Notes: generated by a model not told the origin, from the letters alone. DNA of 24,211 bases from Polyangium sp. (GCA_025450955.1 JANWLJ010000243.1:1-24211), one strand, 5' to 3'; counted from the stretch's first letter, positions 1 through 14,361 are shown. Translations and numbers: made by a program.

Positions 1-257
1 AGCTCCTGCTCGTCGATGACCTGGCCTTCGATGCGCAGCGTGCCGACCGGATCGGGATCGATAGCGACCGCCATCCTCACCGGAAACTCCGCGAAGGTAC
101 CGACGTTCGCCGGAGGCGGCGAGCGCTTTCCGCCGTCGGCGCTCTTTGCCGTCGAGACCGGCGCGGTCGGCATCAGCTTCCAGGTCACGCCCGCCGCCAG
201 CAGCGCGGCGGCGAGCGCCAACCAGAGCCATCGATTTTTCCCGCTACGGCTTTCCAT
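1..257 (-). CDS. N-terminally membrane-anchored protein, probably carboxypeptidase-regulatory-like domain family; partial, runs off the left edge
   Basis: Not in the ORF track. Hand translation from ATG 257: MESRSGKNRWLWLALAAALLAAGVTWKLMPTAPV...DPDPVGTLRIEGQVIDEQE. It has a hydrophobic N-terminal helix and a 'LRIEGQVID' beta-sandwich start. The start overlaps the tfuA stop (244-246). Confidence 0.65.
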   Translation of the reverse strand, partial: MESRSGKNRWLWLALAAALLAAGVTWKLMPTAPVSTAKSADGGKRSPPPANVGTFAEFPVRMAVAIDPDPVGTLRIEGQVIDEQE

Positions 258-1668
258 CACCGTCGCCCGGCGAGAGAGATTTTTCAAAGATGAACTGTTC
301 GAGCACCTCGGCGAAAAAGACGCGCGACGACTCGAACCCGAGCTCCTTGGCGTGGAGCTCCAGCCCACCCTCCATCTTGCGGAAACGCGATTCGTACCAG
401 GCCAAAATCTGCGCGTAATCCGCGCCGGCGTCCTCGAAGGTCGGATTGATGATCCCGGTCTCGCGGAGGTGATGCTTCTTCGCCGTCATGGTCCGCCACG
501 CATCCGGAAAGGCGCCCCGACGGCGCAGCTCGGGTGCGAGGAACGTGCCCGATTCGGCCGCGTAGTGCGCGAGCAGCTCATCGCAGAGCGCCTCGAGCTC
601 CACCAGCCGCGACAGCCCCGCCCGATCCAGTCGGTTCGCCTCCATCCAGCCGTTGGTGGCGGCGATCGACAGCAGCCCGCGCGCGCGACGAAAGCGCTCG
701 GCCGCTTCCTGCAGGCGGCGGCCGCTCACCCGCAACCCGAGCCGCGACGCTTCGCGCTCGACGAGCAGCAGGAGCAGACAGCCGCGACGGACGTCGGGAA
801 AATCAGGCGCGGTCACCCGCACGTGATCGCGCAGCGCCTCGAAGTTGTTCGCGCCGTCGCCGGTGGGCAGCTCGGCATCCACTTGATTCACCACCTCGGT
901 CATCTTGAGCCAGAACGCCGTCTTCTCGAGCTGAAAGCCGGGCGCCGCGCGGGTCTCGGACGCCGGCTCGGTGCGCAGCCTCTCGAGGAGCGCCACCGCA
1001 TCGTCGCGCTTGAGGTTGGGCCGAACGCGCCGGACAAACCCTCTCAGCCGCTCTAGCTCCGGCGCCGGCAGCTCCGCATCCGCCCCTGCGGAGAGGATCG
1101 CATCCCAGGATCGCTCGGGATAGAAAATGCTCTTGGCGATGGCGGTGAGCGACTCCCGGGTTTGCGCCGAGATCGCCTCCTCGCGCTCGGCGCGCTCGAG
1201 CGCGTCGCGCACGTTGACCATCGCTTCCGAGAGACAGCGGTACCCATCGGCCGCCGGGCCGTGGACCACCGCCACCTCGTCGTCGTCTTCGATCTCGCCG
1301 CTCCGAAAGGCCTCGAAGATCTTTCCCACGCCCTCCATTCCGAAGGGATGAAGCTCGGCGGCGCGAAGCGCGCCCATGCTAGAGGCGCCGAGCACACGCG
1401 CCCCGCTCTCCATCGCAAACAGGATCTCTTTGTGCCAGACGCTCGGCACCTGCTCGAAGAAGCCGTCGATGATCGCAACCACCTTCGGCTTCTTTCGGAT
1501 CAGCCGGAACATGTCGCCCATCGCGACCGGCGGCAGATAGATCGCGCTCGGCAGGATCGCGCGCGCCTCGTCGAGCGGCAACGAGGGGCCGAGAAACACG
1601 TAGGTGCTCGGGCGAGCATCGGAGCTGGTCACGGCCGACCCACTCTCGGTCGGCATCGGCTTGCTCAT
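244..1668 (-). CDS. tfuA: TfuA family thioamidation partner with a long C-terminal extension (474 aa)
   Basis: Motifs YVFLGPSL, PPVAMGD, IIDGFFEQVPSVWHKEIL, GASSMGALRAAEL, EDDDEVAVVHG and SEAMVNVR are typical of TfuA. ATG 1668 overlaps the YcaO stop (ATGA). The ORF track's start at 2343 is too far upstream. Confidence 0.95.
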   Translation of the reverse strand: MSKPMPTESGSAVTSSDARPSTYVFLGPSLPLDEARAILPSAIYLPPVAMGDMFRLIRKKPKVVAIIDGFFEQVPSVWHKEILFAMESGARVLGASSMGALRAAELHPFGMEGVGKIFEAFRSGEIEDDDEVAVVHGPAADGYRCLSEAMVNVRDALERAEREEAISAQTRESLTAIAKSIFYPERSWDAILSAGADAELPAPELERLRGFVRRVRPNLKRDDAVALLERLRTEPASETRAAPGFQLEKTAFWLKMTEVVNQVDAELPTGDGANNFEALRDHVRVTAPDFPDVRRGCLLLLLVEREASRLGLRVSGRRLQEAAERFRRARGLLSIAATNGWMEANRLDRAGLSRLVELEALCDELLAHYAAESGTFLAPELRRRGAFPDAWRTMTAKKHHLRETGIINPTFEDAGADYAQILAWYESRFRKMEGGLELHAKELGFESSRVFFAEVLEQFIFEKSLSPGDGDGKP

Positions 1669-13135: not shown

Positions 13136-14361
13136 CGGCGCAGACGGCAGCGACGGCCGCCGCATCCTCCCTAATCTGGCCGCTCTCGCTAGAGGTATTT
13201 TTGGCGGAGTATTGGGCCAAACGCTGCTTCGCCTCCCACGAGCCTGCCGAGCGCCTGCCGGCCGACTTGCGCGAGCTTTGCCAGCTCCAGCTCCCGCAGC
13301 TGCTGGCGCTGGCCGAGGGCCCGGTGCTGGTCATGTACGCGACGCGCGCCGGGGCGTACCGGAGCTCGGAGGTCGCGCCGGCACAGGCGCTCGGATTTTA
13401 TCAGGCGGGAATGACCCTCTACTTCCATCTCGACAAGCGGCGTCCCGAAATTCACCGTTGGCTGCAGGCGCTCGCGGCCGATCTCCGCCAGCCCGTCGAT
13501 GCCCTCCGCTTCAGCGTCTTCGCTACGGATCGCGGCGGCATCACTCAGTGTCACTTCGACATCAATCACAACTTCACCCTCCAGGTTCGCGGCCGCAAGC
13601 GCTGGAAGATCGCCGAAAACCATTTCGCGATTCGTCCGCTTGAGCGCTTCACCGTCTCGGACCGCGTTCCGGAGATCCTGCGGCTGCACACCGTCGAGGA
13701 GCCGCCGCGCTGTCTGCCGCCGGACGCGCAATCGATCGAGCTATTTCCCGGCTCGATGGTCTACGTTCCGCGCGGTGATTGGCACGAGGTGGAGGCGCTC
13801 GAGGAGTCGCTGTCGTTCAATTTATCCTTCTCGCCGGTGACCTGGTTATCGCTCGTGCTCCCGGCAATTCGTCACTGCCTCGCCGCGCATGAGGAGTGGC
13901 GAGAAGAGGCGACCGGAGCTTGGGGTGGCCTCGCCGAGCGTGCCGAAGCTCGTCGGAGATTGGCCGCGTTGATCGCGCGCCTGCCCCAGGATCTGACGAG
14001 CTTGGCGGCGGAAGATCTCCTGCCGGCCTCTCGACATGCGGTCGATCGCGGTCCCTTCGAAGGCGATGCCCGGTTTCGCCGCAATCAGATGGCCACCTTC
14101 GGGATCGAACGTACCAAGGGCTCGGCGGAGCCGCACACCGTGGTGGTGATCACGGTTCCGGGAGGCCCCTCCGCCGGGCTTCGTCTCTCGCCGCCTGCGC
14201 TCGCGGCCTGCCGCGTGATCTTGCAAAAGACAGGTCCATTTTCAATTGGCGAGCTCGCGGCGACGGTGCCCAGCTTGGAGCCGGCGGCGCTCAGCCAACT
14301 CCTCGCCCAGTTGGTCGAGATTGGCTTCGTCCAACGCATCGAGGCCGATCGCCCCGGCTGA
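13132..14361 (+). CDS. JmjC/cupin-4 (YcfD/ROX-like) Fe(II)/2-oxoglutarate oxygenase (409 aa)
   Basis: FLAEYWAKR start motif, HxD (CHFD), LQVRGRKRWK and distal His (PRGDWHEV), with a C-terminal winged-helix-like tail. AGGAG RBS; GTG 13132 overlaps the upstream stop. Confidence 0.9.
   Translation: MTAQTAATAAASSLIWPLSLEVFLAEYWAKRCFASHEPAERLPADLRELCQLQLPQLLALAEGPVLVMYATRAGAYRSSEVAPAQALGFYQAGMTLYFHLDKRRPEIHRWLQALAADLRQPVDALRFSVFATDRGGITQCHFDINHNFTLQVRGRKRWKIAENHFAIRPLERFTVSDRVPEILRLHTVEEPPRCLPPDAQSIELFPGSMVYVPRGDWHEVEALEESLSFNLSFSPVTWLSLVLPAIRHCLAAHEEWREEATGAWGGLAERAEARRRLAALIARLPQDLTSLAAEDLLPASRHAVDRGPFEGDARFRRNQMATFGIERTKGSAEPHTVVVITVPGGPSAGLRLSPPALAACRVILQKTGPFSIGELAATVPSLEPAALSQLLAQLVEIGFVQRIEADRPG

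What the first reader, a model, noticed from the sequence alone, without database searches (positions are those of the whole stretch)
244..14361. Hybrid thioamide + azol(in)e RiPP cluster with an enzyme set I cannot match to a described pathway
Seen: three precursors, ThiF-like protein, three YcaOs, SagB-type dehydrogenase, TfuA, RRE-M50 protease, permease, an RRE/HD-like fusion and a JmjC oxygenase, nearly all translationally coupled in two divergent operons. Known: ThiF/E1 + YcaO + SagB makes azoles from Cys/Ser/Thr, and TfuA-YcaO makes backbone thioamides (thioamitides, thiopeptin/saalfelduracin). Inference: the product is a poly-azole, thioamidated and hydroxylated peptide, possibly a new RiPP subclass from a probable myxobacterium.
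Basis: partly seen in the sequence, partly recalled or inferred. Interest (0 to 1): 0.92.

Follow-up and report, generated by a model that had tools for sequence, protein, structure and literature searches.

The report
Azole-thioamide peptide cluster with aminomalonate module
This is a real, intact gene cluster from an uncultured myxobacterium (class Polyangia) that should make small cysteine-rich peptides carrying thiazole/oxazole rings, a backbone thioamide and probably an aspartate turned into aminomalonate; the enzyme types are all known, but no product has been described for this combination.

Summary

The cluster is not a one-off. Loci with the same gene order and homologous precursors occur in a Bryobacterales MAG and in activated-sludge and other metagenome contigs. 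That order is ThiF-like, YcaO1, SagB, YcaO2, RRE-M50, ABC transporter, YcaO3-TfuA. YcaO1, YcaO2 and YcaO3 form three separate, well-supported clades.

The "RRE/HD-like fusion" carries a DUF6817 domain, the family of SmaX. SmaX is an atypical single-iron HD-domain oxygenase that, with an Fe/2OG hydroxylase, converts Asp to beta-hydroxy-Asp and then to aminomalonate (Kim et al., JACS 2025). The window's domain keeps the His-His-Asn ligand pattern, and a JmjC gene (nearest solved relative a putative asparaginyl hydroxylase) is translationally coupled to it.

At one core position the window's three precursors have Asp, Asp and Asn. The four relatives with enough flanking DNA to check have Gly or Ser there and lack this enzyme pair.

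So the predicted product is a polyazole, thioamidated peptide with aminomalonate rather than a simple hydroxyl. Hybrid LAP/TfuA clusters and SmaX pairs in LAP clusters have been noted bioinformatically before. I rate this a new variant of a known kind, uncharacterised and worth expressing.

The parts
10729..10899 (-). Precursor A1 (56 aa). Leader contains DDELLFQELEDR; core GCGCSCSC-D-CTSCSCVVTF.
   Evidence: Homologous to the 'SCGCSCSC-S-CTSCTCVYTW' precursors of L037, L039 and L041.
10551..10727 (-). Precursor A2 (58 aa). Leader contains EDELLEIVELEDR; core GACACTTSC-D-CTSCSCVAWCVA.
   Evidence: tblastn matches precursors in L037 (70% over 37 aa). Aligned with the other cores.
10360..10533 (-). 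Precursor A3 (57 aa). Core GACACTTSC-N-CTSCSCVGWASSS.
   Evidence: tblastn matches precursors in L039 (65% over 40 aa).
9534..10217 (-). CIA30/CBM11-like lipoprotein (227 aa, lipobox LVGSC). Accessory gene of unknown role.
   Evidence: Pfam CIA30 E 9e-16. A homologue (29% identity) lies at the end of the related cluster L034.
8347..9516 (-). E1/ThiF-like leader-binding partner of the cyclodehydratase (the 'C' protein). Has an N-terminal winged helix and CxxC motifs at residues 286 and 373.
   Evidence: ThiF, TIGR03603 and TIGR03882 hits. CxxC positions. Conserved in L032, L034, L037, L039, L040 and L041.
7060..8343 (-). YcaO1, a SagD-type azoline-forming cyclodehydratase that ends in PHPFP.
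   Evidence: TIGR03604 323 bits. Nearest solved structures are LynD, MusD and TruD. Motifs; forms its own clade; C-termini.
6174..7046 (-). SagB-type FMN dehydrogenase (azoline to azole).
   Evidence: PF00881 and TIGR03605, 141 bits.
4871..6181 (-). YcaO2, a second SagD-type YcaO that ends in PHPFA. It belongs to a paralogous clade that is conserved across the family.
   Evidence: TIGR03604 288 bits.
3600..4874 (-). PqqD-like RRE fused to an M50 intramembrane metalloprotease; the probable leader peptidase.
   Evidence: PF05402 plus PF02163. NF041824 daptide_HExxH 193 bits, below its 300 cut-off. HETGH and NxxPxxxxDG motifs.
2932..3603 (-). ABC-2 type permease (223 aa). Its start overlaps the M50 stop (GTGA). 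No ATPase gene is adjacent.
1665..2915 (-). YcaO3, a TfuA-associated thioamide-type YcaO without the Pro-rich C-terminus.
   Evidence: TIGR03266 236 bits. Nearest solved structure is MJ1094 (6PE3), E 3.7e-36. Separate clade. RBS AAAGGAGGG before the ATG at 2915.
244..1668 (-). TfuA, long form (474 aa): TfuA domain at residues 68-187 plus a conserved helical C-terminal extension.
   Evidence: PF07812 and NF033432 228 bits. ATGA overlap with YcaO3. The extension is conserved in L006, L009, L011 and L039. Long-form TfuA clusters exist in the ESM Atlas.
10900..11164 (.). Divergent intergenic region between the two operons; presumed promoters.
   Evidence: Read directly from the sequence. No promoter scan was run.
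11165..13135 (+). Fusion of an E1-like/RRE leader-binding domain (about residues 1-350, CxxC at 241 and 325), a SmaX-type DUF6817 HD-like oxygenase domain (H391, H415, N501) and three TPRs. An alternative ATG start lies at 11204.
   Evidence: PF20680 E 2.8e-22; TIGR03882 E 3e-6; BLASTP to the ThiF-like N-terminus E 6e-6. Conserved residues. Model pLDDT 96.8 with HD-fold matches.
13132..14361 (+). JmjC/cupin Fe(II)/2OG oxygenase (409 aa) with the triad H141-x-D143...H218, translationally coupled (GTGA) to the fusion.
   Evidence: PF08007 and PF13621. Nearest solved structure is B. subtilis YxbC / 1VRB, a 'putative asparaginyl hydroxylase', E 1.7e-40. Triad positions.

Best explanation
The locus is a complete RiPP biosynthetic gene cluster of the linear azol(in)e peptide type, extended by two tailoring modules.

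Proposed pathway (all steps inferred from family membership; nothing has been shown biochemically):
1. Three precursors are made. They share an acidic leader (LLEIVELEDR-like) and a core of about 20 residues rich in Cys, Ser and Thr.
2. The winged-helix domain of the E1/ThiF-like protein binds the leader.
3. The two paralogous SagD-type YcaOs cyclodehydrate Cys, Ser and Thr, and SagB oxidises the azolines to azoles. The two YcaOs may split the work between Cys and Ser/Thr, or between regions of the core, or they may act as a heteromer.
4. YcaO3 with the long-form TfuA installs one or more backbone thioamides.
5. The divergent operon is recruited to the same leader through the E1-like/RRE domain of the fusion protein. 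The JmjC Fe/2OG oxygenase beta-hydroxylates the single conserved Asp in the core. The fused SmaX-type HD-domain oxygenase then cleaves the C-beta to C-gamma bond to give aminomalonate, as SmaO/SmaX do. The Asn of precursor A3 may also be hydroxylated.
6. The RRE-M50 protease removes the leader after the conserved Gly, and the ABC-2 permease exports the product or gives immunity.
For: - Gene identities and scores above the curated cut-offs.
- Intact catalytic motifs. Both azoline-type YcaOs keep ExxER, EVxERDA and a Pro-rich C-terminus. M50 has HExxH and NxxPxxxxDG, and JmjC has HxD...H.
- YcaO3's nearest solved relative is the thioamide-forming MJ1094, and it is coupled to TfuA by an ATGA overlap.
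- The gene order and homologous precursors are conserved in L032, L034, L037, L039, L040 and L041. The three YcaO clades show largely parallel subclade groupings.
- DUF6817 is the SmaX family, and the Asp to beta-hydroxy-Asp to aminomalonate cascade has been shown biochemically (PMC12186529).
- The window's domain has H391 and H415, spaced 24 residues apart like SmaX H39 and H63. It has Leu rather than Asp after the first His, and N501, a position that is Asn in 136 of 147 homologues. Its model has an HD fold.
- The JmjC + E1-DUF6817 fusion pair recurs in four other cluster contexts: L028, L029-31, L136/137 and L138.
- At core position X the window has D, D and N. L037, L039 and L041 have G, S and G, and L032 has S. 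No DUF6817 or JmjC gene lies in the 2-10 kb of flanking DNA available on those contigs.
Against: - No product, transcript or enzyme activity is known.
- I could not obtain the SmaX or SmaO sequences, so identity to the characterised enzymes is unmeasured. DUF6817 is a large family (1827 hits at E<=1e-3) and may hold other activities.
- SmaO needs Gly after the Asp and rejects Asn. Here the Asp is flanked by Cys, and one precursor has Asn.
- A YxbC-like JmjC in another polyazole pathway (CzlI) hydroxylates Phe, not Asp.
- The Asp/enzyme-pair co-occurrence rests on one positive cluster and four negatives. L034 (Glu at X) and L040 (Asn at X) are on contigs too short to score.
- The ABC ATPase found in relatives is missing here.
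- The complex prediction of the fusion's N-terminal domain with precursor A2 gave no verdict.
Confidence: 0.6

Rival explanations
1. One reading: the JmjC enzyme only hydroxylates a residue (Asp, Asn or an aromatic residue), so the product is an azole + thioamide + hydroxyl peptide. The DUF6817 domain would do something else, such as hydrolysis, a different oxidation or a scaffolding role.
For: JmjC/YxbC-like enzymes hydroxylate varied residues, and CzlI converts Phe to Tyr in a polyazole pathway. The cores end in Trp or Phe. The Asp here lacks the flanking Gly that SmaO needs, and A3 has Asn, which SmaO rejects. Identity to SmaX is unmeasured.
Against: The JmjC gene is translationally coupled to a DUF6817 domain with the SmaX-like His-His-Asn site, and that pairing recurs in four other contexts. 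The only characterised activity of this family is cleavage of beta-hydroxy-Asp. The core position changes from G/S to D/N only where the pair is present.
Confidence: 0.2
2. Beta-hydroxy-Asp or beta-hydroxy-Asn is an intermediate for heterocyclisation. One of the two YcaOs would cyclise the new beta-hydroxyl onto the preceding carbonyl to give a 5-carboxy- or 5-carboxamido-oxazol(in)e. The DUF6817 domain would then trim it or be auxiliary.
For: Phenyloxazole in curacozole and its relatives arises from a beta-hydroxylated Phe that is then cyclised. There are two paralogous YcaOs with different C-termini, PHPFP against PHPF(A/S). The Asp/Asn sits inside a run of residues that can be cyclised.
Against: The YcaO1/YcaO2 pair is just as conserved in relatives that have Gly or Ser at X and no hydroxylase. 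The second YcaO is therefore not specific to a hydroxylated Asp. There is no precedent for this reaction.
Confidence: 0.07
3. The YcaO3-TfuA pair does not act on these peptides. It would modify a housekeeping protein or belong to an adjacent, separate pathway, and the product would be a plain polyazole.
For: Thioamide-forming YcaOs also modify proteins such as McrA and ribosomal uL16. In L032 the pair lies about 4.6 kb away on the opposite strand.
Against: In the window, YcaO3 starts 16 nt after the permease gene and overlaps TfuA, so they sit in the same operon. The same order is kept in L037 and L039. TfuA is not found near uL16-modifying YcaOs.
Confidence: 0.06
4. The cluster is decaying or non-functional in this MAG. 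It has lost the ABC ATPase, and a second, IS-disrupted copy sits on another contig.
For: The ATPase gene present in five relatives is missing. Contig C285 carries a paralogous YcaO1-SagB-YcaO2-ATPase block that ends in an IS3 fragment.
Against: All 14 genes in the window are open, with intact motifs and tight coupling. Many ABC ATPases are encoded elsewhere in the genome.
Confidence: 0.07

Closest known systems
[quoted passage not shown]
   Same: An E1-like leader-binding protein, a SagD-type YcaO, a SagB FMN dehydrogenase, Cys/Ser/Thr-rich cores and an ABC-type exporter.
   Different: This family has two paralogous YcaOs flanking SagB, conserved throughout the family. Its protease is an RRE-fused M50 rather than a TldD/E or CaaX-type protease. 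It also has thioamide and Asp-oxidation modules. NCBIfam found no family match for the precursors, and the word-based protein search found no homologue of precursor A2.
Thioamidated thiopeptides (thiopeptin, saalfelduracin, Sch 18640)
   Same: Among the pathways named in the papers I read, these are the characterised RiPPs that combine YcaO-made azoles with a YcaO-TfuA backbone thioamide.
   Different: No split LanB dehydratase or [4+2] pyridine synthase is present in the window, so the product is not a thiopeptide.
SmaO/SmaX Asp to aminomalonate cascade (group 18 graspetide cluster; Kim et al., JACS 2025, PMC12186529)
   Same: An Fe/2OG oxygenase gene next to a DUF6817 HD-like oxygenase that has a His-His-Asn single-iron site and no Asp after the first His. 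An Asp is present in the core. The authors list such pairs in putative LAP and thioamitide clusters.
   Different: Here the HD-like domain is fused to an E1-like/RRE leader-binding domain and TPRs. The hydroxylase is a YxbC-like JmjC. The Asp is flanked by Cys rather than Gly, and one precursor has Asn. The primary modification is azole formation, not ATP-grasp chemistry.
Thioamitides (thioviridamide, thioholgamide)
   Same: A YcaO-TfuA thioamidation pair. From my own knowledge (not checked here), a JmjC-type hydroxylase also occurs in those clusters.
   Different: The window has no HFCD decarboxylase and no kinase/lyase dehydration genes for AviMeCys. The cores are unrelated, and azole machinery is present.
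Curacozole CzlI (PMC11575548)
   Same: A YxbC/1VRB-like JmjC oxygenase that tailors the precursor in a polyazole RiPP pathway.
   Different: CzlI hydroxylates a Phe ring and is not paired with a DUF6817 enzyme.

Membership tests
LAP (azol(in)e) biosynthetic cluster | Azoline-forming YcaO cyclodehydratase with ATP/Mg motifs and a Pro-rich C-terminus | tested here: met
   YcaO1 and YcaO2 score 323 and 288 bits against TIGR03604 (cut-off 219). ExxER and EVxERDA are kept, and the C-termini are PHPFP and PHPFA.
LAP (azol(in)e) biosynthetic cluster | E1/ocin-ThiF-like partner with a leader-binding domain | tested here: met
   TIGR03882 50.4 bits against a cut-off of 36.9, plus ThiF 51 bits.
LAP (azol(in)e) biosynthetic cluster | SagB-type FMN dehydrogenase | tested here: met
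   TIGR03605 141 bits against a cut-off of 78.4.
LAP (azol(in)e) biosynthetic cluster | Product contains azol(in)e rings and remains linear | not testable with these tools
   This needs mass spectrometry or NMR of the product.
YcaO-TfuA thioamidated RiPPs | Adjacent ycaO and tfuA genes, with a YcaO of the thioamide type | tested here: met
   ATGA overlap. TfuA PF07812 165 bits. YcaO3's best family is TIGR03266, its nearest structure is MJ1094, it lacks the Pro-rich C-terminus and it forms a separate clade.
YcaO-TfuA thioamidated RiPPs | A thioamide in the mature peptide | not testable with these tools
   This needs high-resolution MS (+15.977 Da).
Thiopeptides | Split LanB-type dehydratase and a [4+2] pyridine synthase | tested here: not met
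   No such domain appeared in any ORF scanned with Pfam or NCBIfam across the 24.2-kb contig.
Thioamitides | HFCD decarboxylase plus phosphotransferase/lyase for AviMeCys | tested here: not met
   None of these domains was found in the window.
SmaO/SmaX aminomalonate cascade | DUF6817 HD-like domain with a two-His-one-Asn site and no Asp after the first His | tested here: met
   PF20680 79 bits against a cut-off of 25. H391-L392, H415 and N501 are conserved among homologues. Structural matches to HD-fold proteins include PhnZ at Z 8.9.
SmaO/SmaX aminomalonate cascade | Adjacent Fe(II)/2OG hydroxylase | tested here: met
   The JmjC gene overlaps the fusion gene by 4 nt and has the H141-x-D143...H218 triad. 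Its nearest structure is a putative asparaginyl hydroxylase.
SmaO/SmaX aminomalonate cascade | Asp in the core in a Gly-flanked (GDG) context | tested here: inconclusive
   Asp is present in two of three cores but in a C-D-C context. The third core has Asn, which SmaO rejects.
SmaO/SmaX aminomalonate cascade | Close sequence relationship to the characterised SmaX and SmaO | not tested
   Their sequences are not in the text held for the paper, and no supplement is held.
Daptide-type RRE-M50 protease (NF041824) | Score above the equivalog cut-off | tested here: not met
   192.8 bits against a cut-off of 300. The architecture is related, but the protein is not an equivalog.

The most novel reading that the evidence does not exclude
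This gene order may define a new RiPP subclass: an E1-like protein, an obligate pair of paralogous YcaOs around SagB, an RRE-M50 protease and YcaO-TfuA. Its products would be densely heterocyclised, thioamidated 20-mers.

In this Polyangia member a Gly/Ser position has been recoded to Asp/Asn and a leader-guided JmjC + SmaX-type fusion has been acquired. That would place an aminomalonate between two azoles, giving a malonate-like chelating or reactive centre with no known counterpart. Alternatively the centre could be a heterocycle derived from beta-hydroxy-Asp/Asn, or a masked Gly released by decarboxylation.
Probability: 0.2. Interest if true: 0.8.

Novelty: new variant of a known kind. Interest (0 to 1): 0.62.

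Why it matters
If the prediction holds, this would be the first peptide to combine polyazoles, a backbone thioamide and aminomalonate. It would also be the first test of the SmaX-type Asp-to-aminomalonate cascade outside graspetides, in a leader-guided fused form and in a non-Gly sequence context.

The locus also gives a clean natural experiment. Sister clusters differ mainly by Gly/Ser against Asp/Asn at one core position and by the presence of the tailoring pair.

The conserved YcaO1/YcaO2 pair could show how two cyclodehydratases share one substrate. Polyazole and thioamide RiPPs are often antibiotics or cytotoxins, and myxobacteria are proven producers, so the family is a reasonable target for heterologous expression.

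Tried and rejected
- Precursor homologues by protein search: none. They were found only by tblastn and ORF scanning of syntenic loci.
- The search for related loci with the whole fusion protein found nothing.
- A C-terminal-domain alignment returned 57 DUF6817 loci, mostly from Achromobacter and Bordetella. Only one of them (L168) had a JmjC-like neighbour, and none had a YcaO or TfuA match, so they gave little about this cluster.
- JmjC close homologues: only the window's own protein.
- Foldseek against PDB was dominated by the TPR tail. The HD fold became clear only with VIA-align, at Z values that are middling for helical proteins.
- Complex prediction of fusion residues 1-360 with precursor A2 gave no verdict, so it is no evidence either way.
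- rpoB is absent from the incomplete MAG, so GyrB was used for taxonomy instead.
- Thiopeptide and thioamitide membership were rejected because their class-defining genes are absent.
- A housekeeping (uL16-type) role for YcaO3 is unlikely, because TfuA is not associated with those YcaOs.
- The shadow ORF at 16-1056 (+) was rejected in favour of the TfuA C-terminal extension, because the extension is conserved in homologues.
- A literature search for aminomalonate together with YcaO found no paper linking the two.
- The L138 small ORFs were uninformative.

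
Full report
**What is there**

The window is an entire 24,211-bp contig (C243) of a MAG that is 52% complete and has 343 contigs. GyrB from the same MAG is 75% identical to a Polyangia MAG and 60-66% identical to other Polyangia, Myxococcales and Kofleriaceae MAGs.

ORF listing, Pfam and NCBIfam together with inspection of the start sites give this map.

Minus strand:
- Three precursors at 10899-10729, 10727-10551 and 10533-10360.
- A CIA30-like lipoprotein at 10217-9534.
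- An E1/ThiF-like protein at 9516-8347.
- YcaO1 at 8343-7060.
- SagB at 7046-6174.
- YcaO2 at 6181-4871.
- A PqqD/RRE-M50 protease at 4874-3600.
- An ABC-2 permease at 3603-2932.
- YcaO3 at 2915-1665.
- A 474-aa TfuA at 1668-244.

Plus strand:
- An E1-like/RRE-DUF6817-TPR fusion at 11165-13135.
- A JmjC oxygenase at 13132-14361.

Junctions are overlaps of 4 or 8 nt, or gaps of 1-17 nt, apart from one 142-nt gap before the lipoprotein gene.

**The three YcaOs**

YcaO1 and YcaO2 both exceed the SagD-family cut-off (323 and 288 bits against 219). Their nearest solved relatives are the cyanobactin cyclodehydratases LynD, MusD and TruD. Both keep the ExxER and EVxERDA motifs.

YcaO3 scores best against the McrA-glycine thioamidation YcaO family. 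Its nearest solved relative is M. jannaschii MJ1094 (E 3.7e-36), and it lacks the Pro-rich C-terminus. It overlaps tfuA by ATGA.

A maximum-likelihood tree of 28 YcaOs from this and related loci resolves three clades: YcaO1 (support 99/99), YcaO2 (100/99) and YcaO3 (100/100). The same subclade groupings recur in the YcaO1 and YcaO2 clades. Every YcaO1 ends in PHPFP (9 of 9), and every complete YcaO2-clade sequence ends in PHPFA or PHPFS (11 of 11). The double cyclodehydratase is therefore an old, co-inherited feature of the family and not a recent duplication.

**The cluster is a member of a recurrent, undescribed family**

A search of one genome per species with YcaO2 found a single syntenic locus, L032, in a Bryobacterales (Acidobacteriota) MAG. 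A metagenome scan found L033-L041.

L037 (activated sludge) and L039 carry the following in the same order as the window:
- precursors
- E1-like protein
- YcaO1, SagB and YcaO2
- RRE-M50 protease
- ABC ATPase and ABC-2 permease
- YcaO3
- long-form TfuA

L034 also carries the CIA30-like gene.

None of 400 sampled genomes from the window's own phylum has a YcaO1 or YcaO2 orthologue at E<=1e-60. The distribution is therefore patchy across phyla.

The same MAG holds a second, 50%-identical YcaO1'-SagB'-YcaO2'-ABC ATPase block on contig C285. That block ends in an IS3 fragment.

**Precursors**

The precursors are homologous across the family. The leader carries a (D/E)LLEIE(D/E)LE(E/D)R-type motif and ends in Gly. 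Cores, with position X set off by hyphens:

| Locus | Core(s) | Residue(s) at X |
|---|---|---|
| L037 | GVCACTCSC-G-CTSTSCVAWA; SCGCSCSC-S-CTSCTCVYTW; GACACTTSC-G-CTSCSCVVWF | G, S, G |
| L039, L041 | near-identical triplets to L037 | G, S, G |
| L032 | GCATSSSC-S-CSSSSCIVMA | S |
| L034 | GCATSSSC-E-CTSTSCVVVF | E |
| L040 | GCATSSSC-N-CSSSSCVVYG | N |
| Window A1 | GCGCSCSC-D-CTSCSCVVTF | D |
| Window A2 | GACACTTSC-D-CTSCSCVAWCVA | D |
| Window A3 | GACACTTSC-N-CTSCSCVGWASSS | N |

All three window precursors therefore differ from their closest counterparts at the same position.

**The divergent operon**

DUF6817 appears in one paper in the searchable library: Kim et al., JACS 2025 (PMC12186529). 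That paper shows three things:
1. The Fe/2OG oxygenase SmaO beta-hydroxylates Asp.
2. SmaX then cleaves the C-beta to C-gamma bond to give aminomalonate.
3. SmaX's only HHpred matches are DUF6817 and HD_4. It is an atypical single-iron enzyme with ligands His39, His63 and Asn143, and it lacks the Asp of the HD dyad.

The authors report Fe/2OG-SmaX pairs in 43 putative RiPP clusters, including LAP and thioamitide types, but characterised none of those.

The window's fusion protein matches this picture:
- The DUF6817 match is strong (E 2.8e-22).
- Among 164 aligned homologue sequences, H391 (followed by Leu), H415 and N501 are nearly invariant. The His-His spacing is 24 residues, as in SmaX.
- An AlphaFold model of residues 360-656 (pLDDT 96.8) has an N-terminal helical domain and three C-terminal TPRs. 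The helical domain aligns to HD-fold proteins: small alarmone hydrolase at Z 10.1, Rel at Z 9.8, PhnZ at Z 8.9 and Mesh1 at Z 8.8. These Z values are only middling for helical folds, so I treat them as consistent rather than decisive.
- The first ~350 residues resemble the cluster's own E1-like protein. The winged-helix segment gives BLASTP E 6e-6, there is a TIGR03882 hit at E 3e-6, and there are two CxxC pairs. Full-length homologues exist. This supports a leader-binding role, which remains an inference.

The JmjC protein has an intact H141-x-D143...H218 triad. Its nearest solved relative is B. subtilis YxbC / 1VRB, annotated as a putative asparaginyl hydroxylase (E 1.7e-40).

The JmjC + E1-DUF6817 fusion pair recurs in four other contexts:
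- L029-31, with a small ORF, ThiF, DUF455 and a C39-ABC transporter.
- L136/137, next to a YcaO and a long-form TfuA.
- L138.
- L028.

No DUF6817 or JmjC gene lies within the flanks available for L032, L037, L039 or L041, whose cores have Gly or Ser at X. Together with the recoding of X to Asp/Asn in the window, this supports Asp at X as the target. It rests on one positive and four negative clusters. L034 (Glu at X) and L040 (Asn at X) sit on contigs too short to score.

**Most likely mechanism**

All steps are inferred from family membership:
1. The E1-like protein binds the leader.
2. YcaO1 and YcaO2 form azolines and SagB oxidises them to azoles.
3. YcaO3 with TfuA forms one or more thioamides. 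TfuA-type systems draw sulfide from a ThiS-like thiocarboxylate.
4. JmjC hydroxylates Asp at X, and the fused SmaX-type domain converts the product to aminomalonate.
5. The RRE-M50 protease removes the leader. M50 proteases are known from epipeptides and pearlins; NCBIfam's daptide protease model is the nearest family here. They are not the usual LAP peptidase.
6. The ABC-2 permease exports the product.

My confidence is about 0.85 for an azole/thioamide RiPP cluster and about 0.55 for the aminomalonate step.

Open points:
- The Asp is in a C-D-C context, whereas SmaO needs a following Gly.
- A3 carries Asn, which SmaO rejects.
- Identity to SmaX and SmaO themselves is unmeasured.
- The CzlI precedent shows that YxbC-like JmjC enzymes can hydroxylate other residues.

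**Comparison with what is known, and novelty**

Class-defining genes for thiopeptides and thioamitides are absent, so the cluster is neither. LAP features are met.

Hybrid TfuA + LAP clusters and clusters with several YcaOs were catalogued bioinformatically by Malit et al. 2021. SmaX pairs in LAP and thioamitide clusters were noted by Kim et al..

I found no paper that characterises this family, its precursors or any azole + thioamide + aminomalonate peptide. The scan's own notes hold nothing on other DNA.

The verdict is a new variant of a known kind.

Noticed in passing
G000 contig C285 (L027:1219-5379): A second, paralogous YcaO1'-SagB'-YcaO2' block (50%, 43% and 50% identity) lies in the same MAG. 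It is followed directly by an ABC ATPase and an IS3-type transposase fragment, with no RRE-M50 gene. The contig is cut off upstream.
   Followed up: partly
window 3600-3603, compared with L032, L034, L037, L039 and L041: The ABC ATPase gene that sits between the M50 protease and the ABC-2 permease in five relatives is missing here. The permease start overlaps the protease stop (GTGA). The ATPase may be supplied in trans or may have been lost.
   Followed up: partly
window 244-960 (TfuA residues ~235-474): TfuA has a conserved helical C-terminal extension of about 290 aa. It gives a partial hit to TIGR04500, a 'PpiC-related peptide maturation' family (E 5e-12), and weak structural likeness to the trigger-factor C-terminal domain. 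Long-form TfuAs of about 450 aa form several Atlas clusters. It may be a substrate-binding or chaperone-like domain.
   Followed up: partly
window 9534-10217: A CIA30/CBM11-like lipoprotein is encoded inside the operon, and a homologue lies in the related cluster L034. Its role (immunity, product binding) is unknown.
   Followed up: partly
L029:7063-13418 (also L030 and L031): A different RiPP-like cluster is built around the same JmjC + E1-DUF6817 fusion pair. It has a 41-aa ORF ending in NVRDN, ThiF, a 157-aa ORF, DUF455, a 150-aa ORF and a C39-peptidase ABC transporter. It may be a separate aminomalonate-type peptide family.
   Followed up: no
L136:1-8615: A metagenome cluster carries a YcaO, a long-form TfuA, a 460-aa unknown protein, JmjC, the E1-DUF6817 fusion, a sulfotransferase and DUF6445. 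It shows the thioamide and aminomalonate-type modules together without any azole machinery.
   Followed up: no
window 20815-23673 (-): A large regulator with AAA_16 ATPase, TPR and a C-terminal Trans_reg_C DNA-binding domain (952 aa) lies 6.5 kb from the cluster. It could regulate the cluster.
   Followed up: no
window 23664-24209 (-): An ORF that runs off the contig end matches the C-terminal half of the pepsin-like aspartyl protease family (PF00026, 26.6 bits, cut-off 19.9; also TAXi_C). To my knowledge this family is uncommon in bacteria.
   Followed up: no
window 14400-21000: The right flank has lower G+C (0.58-0.64 in most 1-kb windows, apart from a 0.70 peak at 16-17 kb) than most of the cluster (0.61-0.69). 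It has few ORFs with high GC3 and almost no Pfam hits. One 617-aa ORF (18812-20665) gives a weak hit to the choice-of-anchor Q domain.
   Followed up: no
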